Of a DNA stretch of 64,000 nucleotides, positions 3,022 through 64,000 are shown one piece after another (within the stretch, counting starts at the first letter, position 1; each line of letters starts with the position of its first letter). Location of the stretch: assembly GCA_951406725.2 (NCBI GenBank), contig OX597828.1, positions 34,534,001-34,598,000 on the forward strand, given 5' to 3'. The stretch comes from Octopus vulgaris. Its lineage: Eukaryota. Under the pieces are notes generated by a model, which saw nothing but the letters and a program-made list of their open reading frames with translations, did not search any database and was not told where the DNA came from. The translations under genes and the position numbers were made by a program.

Positions 3022-3710
3022 ATAATATTAATAATGATCAGGAGAACGGAGGGTTTTCACTTCTATAATTTTATTAAACTGTTATTTACAGCATTCTTTT
3101 CTGGACCTATTCAAGTTTTCAACTGCATTGACAGAACACTGTTAGATATGCATCCTGGTGTCACTGTCAGCACAGTTTCATTAGGGTCCTTATAAGGACG
3201 AAAATAAGGACCCAGTCGAAACTTGCGTAGGTCCAGAAAAGAATGCTACAAATAACTGTTTAATAAAATTATAGGCGCAGGGGTGGCTGTGTGGTAAGTG
3301 ATTGCTTACCAACCACATGGTTCCGGGTTCAGTCCCACTGCTTTTACTTGGTCAAGTGTCTTCTACTATAGCCTCGGGCCAACCAAAGCTTTGTGAGTGG
3401 ATTTAGTAGACAGAAACTGAAAAGAAGCCCGTCGTATATAGATGTGTGTGTGTGTGTGTTTGTGTCTCTGTGTTTGTCCCCCCCAACATCGCCTGACAAC
3501 CGATGCTGGTGTGTTAACGTCATAAGGGGTTTGGCATAAGAGACCGATAGAATAAATACTAGGCTTACAAAGAACAAGTCCTGGGGGTCGATTTGTTTCA
3601 ACTAAAGGTGGTACTCCAACATGACTACAGTCAAATGACTGAAACAAGTAAAAGAGTAAAAGAATAAAAGATTATGTGGAAAATCTCCGTTTTCCTTATC
3701 ATTATTAATA
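3022..3710. mobile_element. Fold-back element whose right arm is split by a SINE B copy
   Basis: Left arm ~3025-3125 pairs with ~3213-3272 and, after the SINE, with ~3677-3710. Confidence 0.65.
3272..3670 (+). mobile_element. SINE family B, full length
   Basis: aggcgcaggggtggctgtgtggtaag (A box), ggttcagtccc (B box), CORE-like ttggtcaagtgtc, internal (TG)n, 3' cagtcaaatgactgaaacaagtaaaaga. Confidence 0.9.
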
Positions 3711-6285: not shown

Positions 6286-7341
6286 TGAATATATATCTTA
6301 ATCTGTCAACTGTTAAAATACCATCACCAGATTGTTGGGTGCTATCTTCAAATCCACTCTTTCACAAGCATCTATGTTTGGCCATGTCTCCAGTTTGAGG
6401 GTCGAATTTCCCCTTTCCTACCCCCCCCCCGCCGCCAAATCTGGGAGACACGGAAAAAGGTTCGTAAGTGCCTACCTTCCTCTTATCTTAATTAAGAAAA
6501 CTGATGCTGTGCCGTATTTATTTATCGGATACGATACTAATTTAGCTCTAAACCGTTAAATCAACGAATGTTATCAGGACGCAGAACACTGCGGCTTTTC
6601 GCTCATGTGATGTATTTGTGAGTGGGCGGCCATTCATGTGAGCGCCGCGTGCGTGAATATGTGCATGTGTGTCTCTTTAAGCTTATGCGTTCTGTAATTA
6701 TATATGGTTTTAGCGTGCGTACAGTACGCATATCTATAAGTGTATGACTATGTAAGTGTGTGCGTGTTTGTATGAAATAAATGAATGAATAGTTTATCAG
6801 CGTATCGGTTCATTATAAATGTTAGCAAACATCACATTCACAGCGCCATTTTAACCAACTTCATTCAAAACTTTGTTATTTTTTCGTTTTGCTTTGTCTT
6901 TCTCCACAGTTGCAGATTGAGGTCTTATATTATTATTATTGACCATCAATTATGCAGTAATAGTAGAATTATGCAATAGTTTGCCTTGTTGTTCAGTACT
7001 ATGTGATATCTGAGGATAGCTTTTATTGGTTCTCGTTTTATAAATAAATTATGCAATGGTTTCGGTTAGTCTGCTCAAACAGACGTAATTCGTCATGGTA
7101 GTTGAGCGTCTAAATATCGATTTATTTATATGGGCAAACTGCTTCTGATTTATATTGAGAACATAGGTACATGAAATTCTGTCATGTGTTCATTGTAAGA
7201 CATGACGAAATGACACTGTGGTCAAGAATTCTGGTTCGAATCCACAGACTTGTTATTGAAATTTGGTGACTGGTAGCTGTACGAAAGTCAGTTAGATATA
7301 GGTGTGTGTGTCTGTATTTATATATATATATATATATTTAT

Positions 7342-7750
7342 ACAAAATAAGAAAATGGAGAAATACATCTAAATCATTTATCAACTACCAGATAATACCC
7401 AATCACATACTTTATTAAACCTCTACATAAGAACATTAGGGTTAAACATTGTTTTGTTATATATTTTTATGTTTAACCCTAATGTCCTTATGTAGTGGAT
7501 TAATAAAGTATGTGATTGGGTATTATCTGGAAGTTGATAAATGATTTAGATGTATTTCTCCATTTTCTTATTTTGTTTTATTAATTTATGGTAAAAATAA
7601 TTTTACCTTTGCCTATGTAATACAGTAAATGAATTAATTGCATCGCAATTCTTAACATTTATGTATTAACTTTGTTGGGTACTTCACTAGCAGTATATTG
7701 GATATATGTTATCCCATAGTGGGTTGAATTTGCAACCCCTATCTCAATTT
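7342..7750. repeat. Asymmetric fold-back insert in (TA)n: 108-bp inverted arms plus ~170-bp unpaired tail
   Basis: 7342-7449 is the reverse complement of 7469-7576 with 4 mismatches by eye; (TA)n on both sides. Confidence 0.9.
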
Positions 7751-7985
7751 ATATATATATATATTTCATATTTCAATACGGACCAAATAATTCCGGAGAA
7801 AATATTTGCGAAGATATTATTATTGATTCTATTATTATCTAGTGTAACAATTAAAAATGATAATAACAGAATCAATGATATAGGCGATGGCAGTGTATCT
7901 TCGGTGATTTAAATAAAAGTTTTGACTGTTATTTCCAGCAGGTAGACATACTTAGTATGCCTTTTGATTAATTTTAATCATTCAG

Positions 7986-8071: not shown

Positions 8072-8108
<37 letters not shown>

Positions 8109-8199
8109 GATGTAAAATCGCAAGAAAAGATAAGAGTCATAACTATAATGAAAAGAGCCGCCACACCGAAGTGGCCGTTCCATGTTTCTAGTAGTTTAA

Positions 8200-8432
8200 C
8201 CCCAGGCAGATTCTCTGCGACTCTGCATCCTTTATATACAATATGTATTGTTAGCGGAGGGAGCGAACTCCTACCACCTTCTATCACCTTCTAACAGGAT
8301 CGTGATACTGACTCAGTTTCGAGCTATTTGGCTCATCCTCAGTCGCAAGCGCCTGTCCGCCAGAGCGATAATCAGAGTCCGCTCCAGCCAAAAATGTATC
8401 GTGAAAAAAGCGACTGGAGTATCTGCCTAGGG
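8200..8432. mobile_element. piggyBac-like MITE
   Basis: TTAA|ccccaggcagattctc ... gagtatctgcctaggg|TTAA: CCC/GGG termini with flanking TTAA. Confidence 0.7.
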
Positions 8433-8541
8433 TTAAAATAGTAATAACATTGAACAGCCACTTTGATGTGGTGACTGACTTTACTTTTTAATATTGTTAC
8501 TACTCTGATCTCTTCATAAGATTTTACAACTAGCTATTTCT

Positions 8542-16522: not shown

Positions 16523-16525
<3 letters not shown>

Positions 16526-16800
16526 CAATAATAAATCTCTGAGCGAGATGTAAACAATAAATAATCACATTATACCGAACGCGAGGGAATGCAACTCACG
16601 AAGCGAGCATTTTTGCTCGGTTCGTGAGTTGCATTCCCTCGCGTCCGGTACAATGTGTTTATTTATTATGGTAGTTTTTACTTTAAGAGTTCCTCCTAGC
16701 GTGAAGCGTTTATGTATAGTAATGCCTTTAATATAAATAAATATATTTAAGAGGAACTACTTGATAAATACTTATAATGATTTTATCCTAGTTTTCAATT
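16523..16800. repeat. Fold-back insert in (TA)n with 54-bp arms
   Basis: 16556-16609 pairs with 16614-16667 (4 mismatches, 4-nt loop); unpaired tail to 16800. Confidence 0.9.
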
Positions 16801-27500: not shown

Positions 27501-28039
27501 GTTGCCCCCATTCTAAAACGTTTGAACAGTAGCAACACGTAAACAACATGAAATCTTTATATCCAGTTTACGTAGATGTCTTGTTAGAACACCAATACTG
27601 CGTTGTTAGCCTCGTGAGACCCTCATATAGGCGCTTGGCGCATGTCTATGTATGCTCTTACGCACCAAGTGCCTATATAAGAGAATCTGTCAACGCTAAT
27701 AACGCAGTATTCGGTGTTCTGATCTTTTAGTATTAATACTGCTTCTGTGGGTTGTAATTAACGTTAATCAATGTCTTTAATTGCCGCAAGAAATCTGTAA
27801 AGATTTAAATATTATTTTGATGTCTAAAATAAATTCAACAGTATAACGAACCGCCGTGTATTTGGGCCATGAACAGTATGAAATTAAGGGTCTGTGAGAA
27901 CCGAGTTCAAATCTGGTCGATGTAAATTTCACATTTTATCATTCTGTGGTCATGCAATAGTTTCCATCGATTAAGAACTCCGGCTCTCTCCCCCACCCCG
28001 CCAGAATGTATCATCTTGTACCAAGTTAAAAACCAGTTT

Positions 28040-28420: not shown

Positions 28421-29237
28421 TGAGAGCAAAATAGCAGAAATGCATTACGCTATTTAGTTCCGATTCTTTAAGTGCCAAGTTCCTTTGCCTTAAATCCTTC
28501 TGATGGAACTGAACGAAAATAGCAAAATAGCGATGCTGTAGAGAGGTTCGTTGAATGGCTGTTTTCCTTCAGGACAGATGCAGAAGTTCGTGACGTCAGA
28601 ATTAGAATTCGGTCTTCCTCCAAATAAAAAAAAGAATAAATCCGACATTTTCAATTACGTCTCATATACATCTAAAATTCGAACAGTGCCGGCGGCTTAC
28701 CTGGAGCCGTGGATTAACTAGCATTAGTATACAGAAAATGGAAAATGCATTCCTTCAACTATAATCATTCTGGGGGAAATTCGTGTCCTTGTGTGAGTGT
28801 AAGCATAATGTTATGATAAATGTTGTGGAATACGATGCAGGCCCCTGGCAATAGAAGACGAAGTTGCAGTTTTGGTCAGCTGCGGAAGCGAATGCTTTTC
28901 ACACTCATCATGTTAATTAATGATCTTCAAATTACAAGGGATATCACAAGTTATTGCTCTCCCTCTCCTAGCATCTACGTGTATATACATGTATACACAG
29001 ACACTAAGAGAGAGGGAGAACAATGAATTGGGATATCATATGTGTGTGTGTGTAGTGTGTGTGCGTGCATGCGTGTGTAAGTGTTGTGTGTGTGTGCGTG
29101 TGTGTGTGTGTAAGGAGATACTGTGCACCTACAGAAAAGTAAGAGACAGACTTAACGAAAGTAAAATATTTTATTAATCTGCATAATGAAATTGAGTACC
29201 TCTTTTTTTCCCGACAGTTAACACTAAACACACACAC

Positions 29238-36809: not shown

Positions 36810-37660
<851 letters not shown>

Positions 37661-47207: not shown

Positions 47208-47308
<101 letters not shown>

Positions 47309-47309
47309 A

Positions 47310-47800
47310 CCAATTTACATTAGTTTGTGCTCATAGATGCAGGTATGTATATTTATCTCTCACATTGTGTAGAGAGAAATAAGGATAATCACAAGTCTAT
47401 ATTGTTGTTCCTACACACGTTTCAAAATGACGGTTGTTTGGAATCCTGCATTGGTAGTTCCAGTTGCATTAATGCTCAGCCACAACGAAGCATTACGGAA
47501 CACTTTATTGCATTAAGTTACAGAAAACTACATCTGTAACTTAATGCAATATAGTTGTTCTTCTGCTGATCAGTTGTGGCTGAGCATCTAAATGAAGTTG
47601 GAATATCTATTGCAAGGGTCCAAACAACCGTAACGGTGAAACGTGTGTAGGAACTATGATATAAACTTATGTTTATTCTGATTTATCCTATATTTGCTCT
47701 GTAGCTCCATAATTAGTAATGCTACTACTGTTCAGTCAATAGTTACTTAACCATATAGCAAGCAAACTGGTAATTTGCGTTAAGCTCTAAATATGGTAGT
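47310..47800. repeat. Diverged long fold-back between microsatellites
   Basis: Inner stem 47506-47524/47533-47551; outer blocks 47472-47486/47573-47587 and 47407-47424/47637-47654. Confidence 0.85.
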
Positions 47801-47898
47801 ACTATATATATCCTTTTATTCTTTTACTTGTTTTAGTCAATTGACTGCGGCCATACATACATACATACGTACATACATACATACATACATACATACAT

Positions 47899-52910: not shown

Positions 52911-52915
52911 TATAT

Positions 52916-53047
52916 AGTTCAGTTGTAGCATGAGAAATCTAAAGATTTCTTACGGATGACAGCAACTGAGTATCGCCTGAGGATATAATAAATTAATTTT
53001 CTTATGTATTGGTAAACTTACGTGGTTAACCCCGAATCAACCGGACC

Positions 53048-53105
<58 letters not shown>

Positions 53106-53230
53106 GTCAGTTGTAGCATGGAAATCTAAATTTAGCCATTACGGAGACAGCAACTGAGTATCGCCTGAGGAGATACGTATAGTTCTTCTTATACAGGTAA
53201 ATCGTTGCATAATTTAATTTAAACTTAACT
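52916..53230. repeat. Two related short units separated by (TA)n
   Basis: tcagttgtagcatg..aaatctaaa...acagcaactgagtatcgcctgagga at 52916-52983 and 53105-53171. Confidence 0.8.
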
Positions 53231-53650
53231 ATAAATCCACACACACACATATATATATGTATATATTTATCTCTCTCTCCCTATATATATATATATATAA
53301 ATATATACATATATATATATGTACATATATATATGTACATATATATATATGTACATAAATATGTATATATGTATGTATACACACACATTCACACACATGT
53401 TTTTACTGCCTCAGTGATTAGACTGCGACCATGTTGGGGCACCGCCTATGAGAAACTTTAGTCGAATGAATCAACCCCGGTATTGTTTTTTTAATCCCCG
53501 AACTTATTTTAGCGGTATCTTTTGCTGAATCTCTAAGTTACAGGGACGTGAATATACCAAAACCAGTTCTCAAGCGGTGTGGGGGACAAACACATACACC
53601 AAAAAACATACACACACACGCACACACATACACACAAACATATATGTGCA

Positions 53651-57964: not shown

Positions 57965-59015
57965 CGTAAACTTAACGAATTCCAAACACTTCTAAATGAA
58001 ATAAATGAAAACCTCCAATTTACGATAGAGTACAGTCAGGAACAACTACCGTTTTTAGATATCCTTATTAAGAAAGTCGGAGACAAAATAGAGACAGATA
58101 TCTATTACAAACCCACAGACTCGAAGCAGTACCTGCCATTTGATTATTGCCACCCGAGACACACCAGGATGAATATCCCATTTTGTTTAGCCAAAAGAAT
58201 ATGCACAATAATATGAAACGCAAACACCCGTTAGACACGACTCCAGGAATTGAAAACCACGCTCATCAATAGTAATTACCCGCAACTCTTAATCGACAAT
58301 ACGATCCAACGAGTACTTAAATTAAATACACAAGAACTTAGACAACCAAGACCAAAGAAGGAAGAAAAATTGAAAACCCTGCCTTACATTTCCACACACA
58401 ACCAACATAACAATGAGGCCTTCGACACTATTCTCCACAGCATAGCTCCACTCAAGAGAAACCCAAAGATGAATCAAATCCTCAAAACATACCCAATCAT
58501 GAAAAGTAAGAGACAACCAAAATCAATGAAAAAGATTTTAACTCAGGCCTAATTACTCCCAACAATAACCGCTAAGCCGACAGTAAAAAAATGCGGGAGA
58601 CCAAACTGTGGGATTTGTATCAGCATAACAGAGGGATCAGGACAGCGATTAGAACAAGGACATAATTTCATCATAAAAACTAATTTTACATGCGCATCGG
58701 AGAACTTGATTTAATTACATGCTCGGGATGTAAACGGCAATATATTGGGCAACAAAGGCGGCGCGCTGGCAGAATCGTTAGCTCGCCGGGCGAAATGCGT
58801 AGCTGTATTTCGTCTGCCGTTACGTTCTGAGTTCAAATTCCGCCGAGGTCGACTTTGCCTTTCATCCTTTCGGGGTCGATAAATTAAGTACCAGTTACGC
58901 ACTGGGGTCGATATAATCGACTTAATACCTATGTCTGTCCTTGTTTGTCCCCTCTAGCCCCTTGTGGGTAGTAAAGAAATATGTTGGGCAACAAAAAACA
59001 GCCTACGTCAAAATG
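57965..59015 (+). pseudogene. Penelope-like retroelement fragment (RT thumb, Cys-rich linker, GIY-YIG start)
   Basis: [40 protein letters not shown]; CGRPNCGIC; ITCSGCKRQYIGQ; in-frame TGA, TAG and TAA stops. Confidence 0.88.
58756..58980 (+). mobile_element. SINE family A inserted in the PLE YIG motif
   Basis: TSD aatatattgggcaacaa (58739-58755) vs aatatgttgggcaacaa (58978-58994). Confidence 0.92.
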
Positions 59016-62860: not shown

Positions 62861-64000
62861 CACATCATATATGATGTGATGTGTAAAGTCGTGTGGTGTA
62901 GTGAGGAGAAGAGGGGGAGGGGGAGAAGAGGGGGAGAGAAGGGGAGGGGAAGGAGAGGGGGAAGAGGAGAGGAGGGGGGAGAGAAAGGAGGGGGAGGAAG
63001 GAGGAAAGGGGGGAGGAAGGAGGAAAGAGGGGGAGGGGGAGAGAGAAGCGGAGTGAGGGAACAGAGGGAAGAGGGAAGGAGGGAGGGAGAAAGAGGGAAG
63101 AAGGGAAGGGGAGTAGGGGTGAAAGGATGAAGGACTGAAGAAGTAGGGGTCGGGGGGAAGGATAGGTGAGGAGGGGGAGAGGGGGTTAGATGAGGAGGGG
63201 GAGAGTTGAGACCAAATGGCGTATAAGAGCGAAGAGAGAAGATTAATTCCTGTTCACGGCGCAAACGGGAATCCGGATGGCCTCTGTGTAAGGACAAACC
63301 GAACACAGATAGGTGTTGCAAGGAGTGATCGGTGGAGCGGAAATGGCGTGAGACCGGTGTGTCGTTCGCAAGGTGGATGTCACGAAGGTGTTCCGCGAAC
63401 CGGTCAGCCAAGCGGCGTCCCGTTTGTCCGATGTACAAGGAATTGCAGAGAGAGCAAGAGACGCAATAGATAATATTGCTGGAGGTGCAGGTGAAGGAGT
63501 GGATGATGGGATAGGGTCGATGGTGGGTGCTAGTGAGGCGGGTGGTGTTGGAGAGGTAAGGGCAAGTGCGGCAACGTGGGCGGGAGCAGGGGAACGAGCC
63601 GGGTTGGGAGGTAGGGTCAGGGAAGGAGCTATGGACCAAAAGGTCTCGAAGGTTGTGGGCTCGTTTGAAAGAGGGGAGGGGTCGGTTAGGGAAGAGGTGT
63701 GAAGTGGACGGGTCGGACTGGAGATGACGGAAAGCTCGAAGAATGGTGCGTTGGAGACGTAGGGTCGTGGGGTGGTAAGTGAGGGGAAAAGGGAGGCGGG
63801 AGACTACAGGGCGGGTTCGGGGAGAGAGAGCAGATACACGGTCCACGGACCGTGCTCTGGCAAGGGTGGTGTGGATAGTGGTGAGGGGGTATCCACGTAG
63901 GGTGAAGTGGTGAGCCATACGTTGAGACTGAGTCTCAAAGTCATGGTCGTCACTACAGAGCCTACGTAGACGGAGGAATTGGGAATAGGGGATGGAAAGC
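62836..64000 (-). CDS. PLE RT thumb + Cys-rich linker + GIY-YIG endonuclease (partial)
   Basis: SIPYSQFLRLRRLCS upstream of the called Met; CSRPRCRTC; NIIYCVSCSLCNSLYIGQTGRRLADRFAEH; RREQELI..L....PFGLN. Residues after GLN are a pyrimidine-rich tract. Confidence 0.88.
   Translation of the reverse strand, partial: LSIPYSQFLRLRRLCSDDHDFETQSQRMAHHFTLRGYPLTTIHTTLARARSVDRVSALSPRTRPVVSRLPFPLTYHPTTLRLQRTILRAFRHLQSDPSTSHLFPNRPLPSFKRAHNLRDLLVHSSFPDPTSQPGSFPCSRPRCRTCPYLSNTTRLTSTHHRPYPIIHSFTCTSSNIIYCVSCSLCNSLYIGQTGRRLADRFAEHLRDIHLANDTPVSRHFRSTDHSLQHLSVFGLSLHRGHPDSRLRREQELIFSLRSYTPFGLNSPPPHLTPSPPPHLSFPPTPTSSVLHPFTPTPLPFFPLSPSLLPSSLCSLTPLLSPPPPLSSFLPPFLLPPPPFSPPSSPLPPLLPLPFSPPLLPLPLFSSLHHTTLHITSYMMCHTNTYTN

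What the first reader, a model, noticed from the sequence alone, without database searches (positions are those of the whole stretch)
7342..7750. Asymmetric fold-back inserts in (TA)n: one architecture shared by unrelated sequences
Seen: (TA)n | 108-bp arm | 19-nt loop | inverted arm | ~170-bp unpaired tail | (TA)n. The same layout recurs with different sequence at 16523-16800, 37129-37345, 47310-47800 and, in miniature, at 52916. Ordinary MITEs have terminal, symmetric repeats, whereas here one side carries an extra tail. Inference: either truncated Penelope/Naiad-type insertions with an inverted pLTR copy (some PLE clades target (AT)n), or Crypton-like hairpin elements. Each would form long dsRNA if transcribed.
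Basis: partly seen in the sequence, partly recalled or inferred. Interest (0 to 1): 0.7.

Follow-up and report, generated by a model that had tools for sequence, protein, structure and literature searches.

The report
Two-ended Penelope retrotransposon insertion scars
This hairpin is the cut-short end of a Penelope-type jumping gene that inserts into TA repeats, and its lopsided shape likely arises because both broken DNA strands start copying the element's RNA at two different fixed points; the lopsided form is already known for this group.

Summary
The hairpin is real: 108-bp arms with 4 mismatches, a 19-nt loop, a ~173-nt tail and (TA)n on both sides. It is the 5'-truncated 3' end of a high-copy Hydra-clade Penelope-like element (PLE). 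Full-length relatives have a ~5.6-kb unit, a ~945-aa RT plus C-terminal GIY-YIG ORF with the Hydra motifs, and a hammerhead. The inverted arm is made per insertion: arms run from about 40 bp to 3.2 kb while the outer ends are fixed. 52 of 53 two-ended copies pair site A (3' end) with site B (176 nt upstream). In 10, the A piece never reaches B, so cDNA snap-back cannot be the general route; priming of both target strands at two RNA start sites fits. The other window hairpins belong to unrelated hammerhead-bearing families; two are tandem units with no ORF found, and 52916 is a chimera. The architecture (inverted truncated copy plus tail) is published. The 175-nt tail, strict A+B pairing and coupled truncation points were not found in print. 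This scan noted the two-site pattern before, on this and other genomes. Not a MITE, Crypton or Naiad.

The parts
7319..7337 (.). left (TA)n target microsatellite
   Evidence: sequence
7340..7449 (-). inverted piece; starts at internal site B (176 nt upstream of the family 3' end) and is truncated at -285
   Evidence: 95% to real copy L116, positions -285..-176; same outer end in 52 of 53 two-ended copies
7450..7749 (+). forward piece; 3'-terminal 304 nt of the Hydra-clade PLE leader/pLTR, ending at site A. Contains the loop (7450-7468), the second arm (7469-7576) and the tail (~7579-7749)
   Evidence: 95% to L116 over 304 nt; ~81% to the pLTR of full-length sister copies L248/L249
7449..7450 (.). 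head-to-head junction, blunt, no overlap
7590..7607 (+). small hairpin just 3' of site B (GGTAAAA/TTTTACC); candidate start signal, untested
   Evidence: also pairs in sister copies L249 and L254
7721..7738 (+). small hairpin ~15 nt 5' of site A (GGGTTG/CAACCC); candidate start signal, untested
   Evidence: stem kept and loop varies in the nine commonest of 42 variants; no compensatory change seen
7750..7764 (.). right (TA)n target microsatellite
   Evidence: sequence
16524..16800 (+). truncated two-armed copy of family E2 (~492-bp tandem unit with a type I hammerhead motif upstream of the part held here; no ORF found)
37126..37345 (+). truncated two-armed copy of family E3 (466-bp tandem hammerhead unit, ends at -1 and about -73)
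47307..47802 (+). old two-armed copy of family E4; the arms contain a decayed hammerhead (core reads CTGCTGA here); parent not resolved
52914..53237 (+). two fragments of hammerhead family E5, the first fused to the 3' end of a further fold-back family (E7, as in L099/L103)

Best explanation
The insert is the 5'-truncated 3' end of a Hydra-clade Penelope-like retrotransposon, and its arm and tail were likely made in one insertion event in which both nicked strands of a (TA)n target primed reverse transcription at two fixed sites on the element RNA, 176 nt apart. Shown: family membership, fixed ends A and B, variable inner ends, near-strict A+B pairing. Inferred steps: (1) the GIY-YIG domain nicks both strands of (TA)n; (2) one 3' end primes at site A, the other at site B; (3) both cDNAs run towards the RNA 5' end and stop early, often at nearly the same place, which suggests one shared, 5'-shortened RNA with the A-primed strand displacing the B-primed one; (4) the two cDNAs are joined head to head, blunt or over a few bases. 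Where the A piece runs past B the overlap is present twice and reads as a fold-back with an unpaired 175-nt tail; where it stops short there is a plain inversion without a hairpin. The other window families are likely mobilised the same way, E2 and E3 in trans.
For: Parent: L211 joins a GIY-YIG ORF 3' part to UTR 97% identical to this subfamily and carries an inverted arm ending at B, 96-98% identical to the window copy. L248 and L249 are pLTR-ORF-pLTR copies of a ~80% sister subfamily with RWR/RWK, DKT, CxCX5C, CxxC and CxH motifs, as listed for Hydra in PMC8557442 section 11. Hammerhead motif about 400 nt upstream of site A; descriptor hits 30 in 371 kb against 0 in the reversed control. Arm length varies: 43 bp (L146), 1240 bp (L116) and 3.2 kb (L249/L256), all from site B. 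Of 53 distinct two-ended insertions among 120 loci: 52 A+B, 1 A+A, 0 B+B; the tail-only query added 14 of 14 A+B and the arm-only query 9 of 9. In 10 the A piece stops short of B, nine of them at 44-81 nt; in 17 of 52 the B piece reaches further upstream than the A piece. Inner ends lie within 20 nt of each other in 9 of 14 copies against 2.2 expected, 0 of 20,000 permutations. Arms agree at 415 of 441 polymorphic positions against 288 expected. In vitro a PLE protein nicks and extends both strands and starts at two internal RNA sites (PMC11167929). Site B followed by (TA)n appears as a loose end in 11 contigs of an independent run.
Against: No biochemistry for this clade. Coupled inner ends and shared haplotypes are also what snap-back gives, and L011 turns at a natural hairpin, so snap-back may make some copies. 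Later deletion at palindrome centres or arm-to-arm conversion can blur both measures. L028 has arms from two subfamilies (6 discordant sites), so one RNA is not obligatory. Searches scored only the best 40 candidates each, and favours copies shaped like the query. No intact full-length copy of the window's own subfamily was found. Family E2 is looser: A+A arrangements in L040 and L053, and the window copy's arm starts at -172, not the usual -90. In E3, L286 looks B+B. (TA)n hides any target-site duplication.
Confidence: 0.8

Rival explanations
1. Same element, but the arm comes from self-priming: the A-primed cDNA folds back and copies itself as far as site B (or self-priming on an antisense template, as proposed for rotifer Penelope).
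For: Inner ends are coupled (9 of 14 within 20 nt); arms share haplotypes; L011 and L129 are near-perfect palindromes; PMC3846280 reads head-to-head palindromes as self-priming (passages).
Against: 10 copies have a B piece although the A piece never reaches B; in 17 of 52 the B piece extends beyond the A piece; 26 unpaired ends lie at B; the window junction is blunt; L028 arms come from different subfamilies.
Confidence: 0.13
2. A fixed-structure DNA element (MITE, Crypton-like or Helentron-like) with one terminal and one subterminal inverted repeat.
For: Both outer ends are fixed, and many of the best hits have nearly the query's length.
Against: Arm length ranges from 43 bp to 3.2 kb, the centre differs per copy, many copies have one end only, and the sequence is contiguous with an RT-GIY-YIG ORF and carries a hammerhead.
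Confidence: 0.02
3. Assembly artefact (fold-back reads at microsatellites).
For: No public contig laid spans the window copy's loop or its (TA)n flanks.
Against: Arms differ at 4 of 108 positions; dozens of loci share the same two end points; element depth is 10^3-10^6 against 14-45 in the unique flank in 4 of 4 runs, and the site-B junction is seen in an independent run.
Confidence: 0.01

Closest known systems
Hydra clade of C-terminal EN+ Penelope-like elements, incl. Hydra-1_Obim (Craig et al. 2021, PMC8557442; sections 6, 11, 15 and supplement rows read)
   Same: Single ORF, RT then GIY-YIG; RWR/RWK, DKT, CxCX5C, CxxC and CxH motifs; hammerhead; (TA)n target; 5' truncation, partial tandems and inverted copy.
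   Different: Unit ~5.6 kb with a ~945-aa Asn-rich ORF and 2.2-2.6 kb of UTR, against generally <3 kb (Hydra-1_Obim 2507 bp, listed without pLTR); by eye a different family from Hydra-1_Obim (no alignment run). Tail ~175 nt against 30-40 bp. Hammerhead core mostly CCGAAGA in this subfamily, CTGAAGA in the sister, with an 85-100-nt stem II.
Poseidon of the green anole, two RT start sites (Frangieh et al. 2024, PMC11167929; parts 1-2 of 4 read)
   Same: Two fixed internal start sites downstream of the hammerhead; the tail is the stretch between them; A/T-rich target; both strands extended in vitro.
   Different: There the sites lie inside the ORF and show no strand preference in vitro; here both lie in the leader, A about 140 nt before the ATG, 176 nt apart, and each insertion uses one of each.
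Adineta Penelope with inverted pLTR, optional 31-bp tail and Asn-rich inserts (Arkhipova et al. 2013, PMC3846280; passages)
   Same: Head-to-head inverted copy, one-sided tail, Asn-rich stretch between RT and EN.
   Different: They infer self-priming and see 8-10-bp TSDs; here non-overlapping A and B pieces require two priming events, and (TA)n hides any TSD.
Metazoan non-LTR retrozymes (PMC7229834, passages; bioRxiv 10.64898/2026.07.22.740005, part 1 of 5 and passages)
   Same: E2 and E3 are tandem units without an ORF found, with one type I hammerhead each.
   Different: Units are 466-492 bp; they carry the PLE two-site inverted footprint in (TA)n, which these two main texts do not discuss. 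Cleavage and circles were not tested. E1 itself is not a retrozyme.

Membership tests
EN+ Penelope-like element | single ORF with PLE-type RT and GIY-YIG endonuclease | tested here: met
   955-962-aa open frames in L247-L249; alignment to full-length homologues. Pfam gave 0 hits on the two C-terminal fragments scanned, so the EN call rests on motifs, not on Pfam.
EN+ Penelope-like element | partial tandem / pLTR in front of the ORF | tested here: met
   L248 (~880-bp direct repeat, 98%), L249 (508 bp, 99.6%), L254
EN+ Penelope-like element | 5'-truncated copies, inverted 5'-truncated copy, one-sided tail | tested here: met
   tail is 175 nt, not 30-40
Hydra clade | C-terminal EN; RWK, DKT, CxCX5C linker, CxxC and CxH; no CCHH | tested here: met
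   RWR (RWK in L254), SDKT, CNCRNKNKC, CSLC, CIH against PMC8557442 section 11. The EN has CTV/VYIG, with one cysteine in the GIY-YIG core.
Hydra clade | hammerhead motif in the pLTR | tested here: met
   27 motif variants listed across family loci, stems I-III pairable. Rfam did not detect it; cleavage not tested.
Hydra clade | insertion into (TA)n | tested here: met
   ends of nearly all copies listed
Hydra clade | placement in the RT phylogeny with named Hydra elements | not tested
   named reference proteins were seen only as paper text; no tree built
Naiad clade | N-terminal EN, no canonical hammerhead | tested here: not met
   EN is C-terminal and a hammerhead motif is present
MITE / Crypton-like DNA element | fixed internal structure and termini copied whole; no RT link | tested here: not met
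   variable arms and centres, single-ended copies, RT-EN link
Non-LTR retrozyme (for E2, E3) | tandem non-coding unit with a type I hammerhead | tested here: met
   E3 stem II reads GGAG/CTCT or GGGG/CCCC. PLE-protein hits lay in the flanks of some loci; those looked at were beyond the unit's 3' end.
Non-LTR retrozyme (for E2, E3) | self-cleavage and circular RNA | not testable with these tools
   no assay possible; no RNA reads laid

The most novel reading that the evidence does not exclude
Hydra-clade PLEs integrate by obligatory two-site twin priming: an RT dimer on one RNA hands one target strand to site A and the other to site B, the A-primed strand displaces the B-primed cDNA or stalls before it, and each start is set by a hairpin ending about 9-16 nt upstream, like a telomerase template boundary. 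Several unrelated hammerhead RNAs borrow this machinery and have seeded thousands of 0.05-3-kb palindromes, a standing source of dsRNA in a lineage known for heavy A-to-I editing (the telomerase and editing points are recalled).
Probability: 0.35. Interest if true: 0.65.

Novelty: new member of a known kind. Interest (0 to 1): 0.38.

Why it matters
The PLE integration mechanism is still open: Craig et al. call for a system that explains the tandem and inverted structures, and Frangieh et al. leave the steps after first-strand synthesis unvalidated. This family spaces its two start sites 176 nt apart, so the two priming events can be read apart in genomic copies. The counts (52 of 53 A+B, pieces that do not overlap, coupled truncations) argue against self-priming as the general route and give exact predictions for an in vitro test with an intact ORF. 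For annotation, these hairpins should be filed as PLE, not MITE. The window copy itself is a dead fragment, and the overall architecture is published.

Tried and rejected
Rfam scan of 15 loci: no hammerhead at threshold, one weak HH9 match (E 0.11), the rest miRNA-type matches to hairpins and repeats; an own descriptor was used instead. That descriptor found no intact hammerhead in the window and missed the E4 motif, seen with a looser pattern in 6 of 20 loci. Pfam missed the Hydra EN. Two earlier runs of the end classifier had a faulty low-complexity filter and under-counted (16 of 16 A+B); one search is the corrected run, and it still left some visibly two-ended loci unpaired (L016, L027, L167). 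Its E2 calls are unreliable (anchors misfired), so E2 is described. Lead from earlier scan notes, that both ends lie just before twin copies of one hairpin: only partly seen. There is a hairpin 3' of E1 B, E3 B, E2 A and E2 B, weak or absent 3' of E1 A and E3 A, and the two are not copies of each other. Hairpins 5' of the site fold at 6 sites (E1 A, E2 A, E2 B, E3 A, E3 B, weakly E5 A); none was seen by eye at E1 B or E5 B; 23-31% of random 30-nt windows fold as well, windows were chosen after looking, and three of the eight patterns mostly caught unrelated sequence. An A[AT]TTTA motif near most sites is a lead only. Expression: no RNA holder listed; not resolved. The GIY-YIG remnant after site A in L017 is read as a neighbouring piece in the same (TA)n, not the element's own continuation. 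Paper searches found no report of strict two-site pairing or tails above 40 bp; most subscription papers, Repbase reports and bioRxiv supplements were not seen and may bear on this. Sequence look-up in the scan's notes gave nothing.

Full report
Observation. The window holds the structure as described: (TA)n at 7319-7337, arm 7342-7449, loop 7450-7468, arm 7469-7576 (4 mismatches in 108), tail to 7749, then (TA)n. It folds at -193.9 kcal/mol against -67.0 +/- 5.8 for 30 shuffles. The four other sites do not match it in sequence. Three are true fold-backs of falling quality (89%, 71%, 75%); 52914-53052 is a fusion of two families. The genome is 2.8 Gb in 227 contigs. Its SINE-like repeats looked octopus-like to me (recalled), and one scan note on the same genome says octopus.

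Family. Each site is a repeat family: 2783, 1539, 1914, 417 and 183 first-look candidates, 40 scored each. In 4 of 4 public runs, contig depth on E1 is 10^3-10^6 against 14-45 on the unique flank, and site B followed by (TA)n is a loose end in 11 contigs of one run; no contig spans the window copy itself.

The centre varies, the ends do not. Against a real long copy (L116), forward pieces end at one site (A, the 3' end) and inverted pieces at a second (B, 176 nt upstream). Inner ends range from -44 to beyond -1549. Arms run from 43 bp (L146) through 1240 bp (L116) to 3.2 kb (L249/L256, sister subfamily, homologous site B).

Parent. Walking upstream led to GIY-YIG and RT frames and, by a protein search with 8501 candidates (150 scored), to full-length copies. 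L248 and L249 read pLTR, ~140-nt leader after site A, ORF of about 945 aa, 2.2-2.6 kb UTR, pLTR; the unit is ~5.6 kb. These are ~80% identical to the window's subfamily. L211 ties the subfamily itself to the endonuclease: ORF 3' part, then UTR interrupted by a LINE fragment, then UTR 97% identical to L116, plus an inverted arm ending at B that is 96-98% identical to the window copy. The protein has RWR/RWK, DKT, CxCX5C, CxxC and CxH and a C-terminal EN, the marks of the Hydra clade (PMC8557442 section 11). That paper's supplement lists Hydra-1_Obim, 2507 bp, (TA)n, by eye a different family. 314 library proteins match at E<=1e-30. Pfam did not recognise the two EN-containing fragments. A type I hammerhead motif lies ~400 nt before site A, core CCGAAGA or CTGAAGA; the window copy is truncated downstream of it.

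How the arm forms. Among 120 loci from four queries (overlapping), 53 distinct two-ended insertions gave 52 A+B, 1 A+A (L196, 259-nt gap) and 0 B+B; 45 ends stayed unpaired (19 A, 26 B), some through locus edges or missed anchors. The two one-sided queries, which could have shown symmetric forms, added 14 of 14 and 9 of 9 A+B. In 10 copies the A piece stops before B, nine at 44-81 nt, giving an inversion with no duplication. A cDNA that never reached B cannot have templated the B piece, so B is a priming site. In 26 of 52 the A piece reaches further upstream, in 17 the B piece, in 9 they are within 3 nt. Where A passes B, the inner ends are coupled: 9 of 14 within 20 nt against 2.2 expected (copies left out as biased; 6 copies dropped for reaching the reference edge or for large gaps). 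In 34 copies the arms differ by 2.9% on average against 8.3% from other copies, and agree at 415 of 441 polymorphic positions (288 expected); L028 is a clear exception. One RNA copied twice fits most copies; snap-back may account for some near-perfect palindromes such as L011. Junctions are mostly blunt or overlap by a few bases. This matches the in vitro result that a PLE protein extends both target strands and starts at two internal sites whose spacing is the tail (PMC11167929, parts 1-2 of 4), and does not fit self-priming as the only route (PMC3846280, passages). Nicking, priming, displacement and joining are inferred, not shown.

The other families. E3 is a 466-bp head-to-tail unit with a hammerhead whose stem II reads GGAG/CTCT or GGGG/CCCC; ends lie at -1 and about -73; 13 of 14 two-ended copies among 20 loci are A+B. 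In 30 more loci I read 7 clear A+B, 1 B+B-like, 1 other and 2 unclear by eye. E2 is a ~492-bp tandem unit with a hammerhead; inverted arms end near -90 in six loci, elsewhere in three, and A+A forms occur. E4 carries a hammerhead inside its arm (6 of 20 loci intact) and E5 has ends about 140 nt apart; their parents were not found. E2 and E3 meet the sequence definition of non-LTR retrozymes (PMC7229834 passages; bioRxiv 10.64898/2026.07.22.740005 part 1 and passages). One enzyme class acting on several RNAs likely explains the shared layout of unrelated sequences.

Start signals. Small hairpins lie 5' and/or 3' of most sites, with an A[AT]TTTA motif nearby, but the background is high and no compensatory change was seen within a family. 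The twin-hairpin idea from earlier scan notes was only partly borne out. This stays a lead.

Novelty. Inverted truncated copies with a one-sided tail, (TA)n targeting and Hydra elements in octopus are published (PMC8557442). A recent octopus repeat annotation lists Penelope families without this anatomy (PMC13282606, passages). The 175-nt tail, 5.6-kb unit, strict A+B pairing and coupled truncation were not found in seven searches. The scan's own notes already report two-site priming on this and other genomes; these are not independent support. Verdict: new member of a known kind with a useful mechanistic footprint; interest 0.38.

Noticed in passing
window 57965-58711 and 63319-63996: Fragments of Neptune-like PLE reverse transcriptase (53% and 27% to the ORF in L214; label from motifs, recalled).
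   Followed up: no
window 3063-3274, 27586-27720, 28940-29037, 8108-8531, 9-481: Further aged palindromes or inverted pairs, not matched to the families examined.
   Followed up: no
window 16524-16555: 32 nt between (TA)n and the E2 arm that do not match the E2 unit; origin unexplained.
   Followed up: no
L255 (G000 C1:119514000-119523900): A second Hydra-type family in 3.6-kb tandem units, 99.9% identical, with open 899-aa frames and no CxCX5C linker; 39% identical to the E1 protein; appears very young.
   Followed up: partly
L017/L118/L211 (G000 C32:1267641-1284182): One E1 insertion appears split by a ~250-bp tandem array over about 10 kb and by a LINE fragment.
   Followed up: partly
L030 655-925, L153, L087, L073: Another abundant (TA)n fold-back family that often inserts beside E1 and E3 copies.
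   Followed up: no
L151-L173 (arm-only set): Short A pieces cluster at 44-81 nt, with few between -101 and -161; may reflect stalling before the second RT at site B.
   Followed up: partly
L027; L091: Two insertions of one family back to back in a single (TA)n tract.
   Followed up: no
L253 7948-9552: A 535-aa tandem C2H2 zinc-finger frame lies next to a Hydra PLE copy.
   Followed up: no
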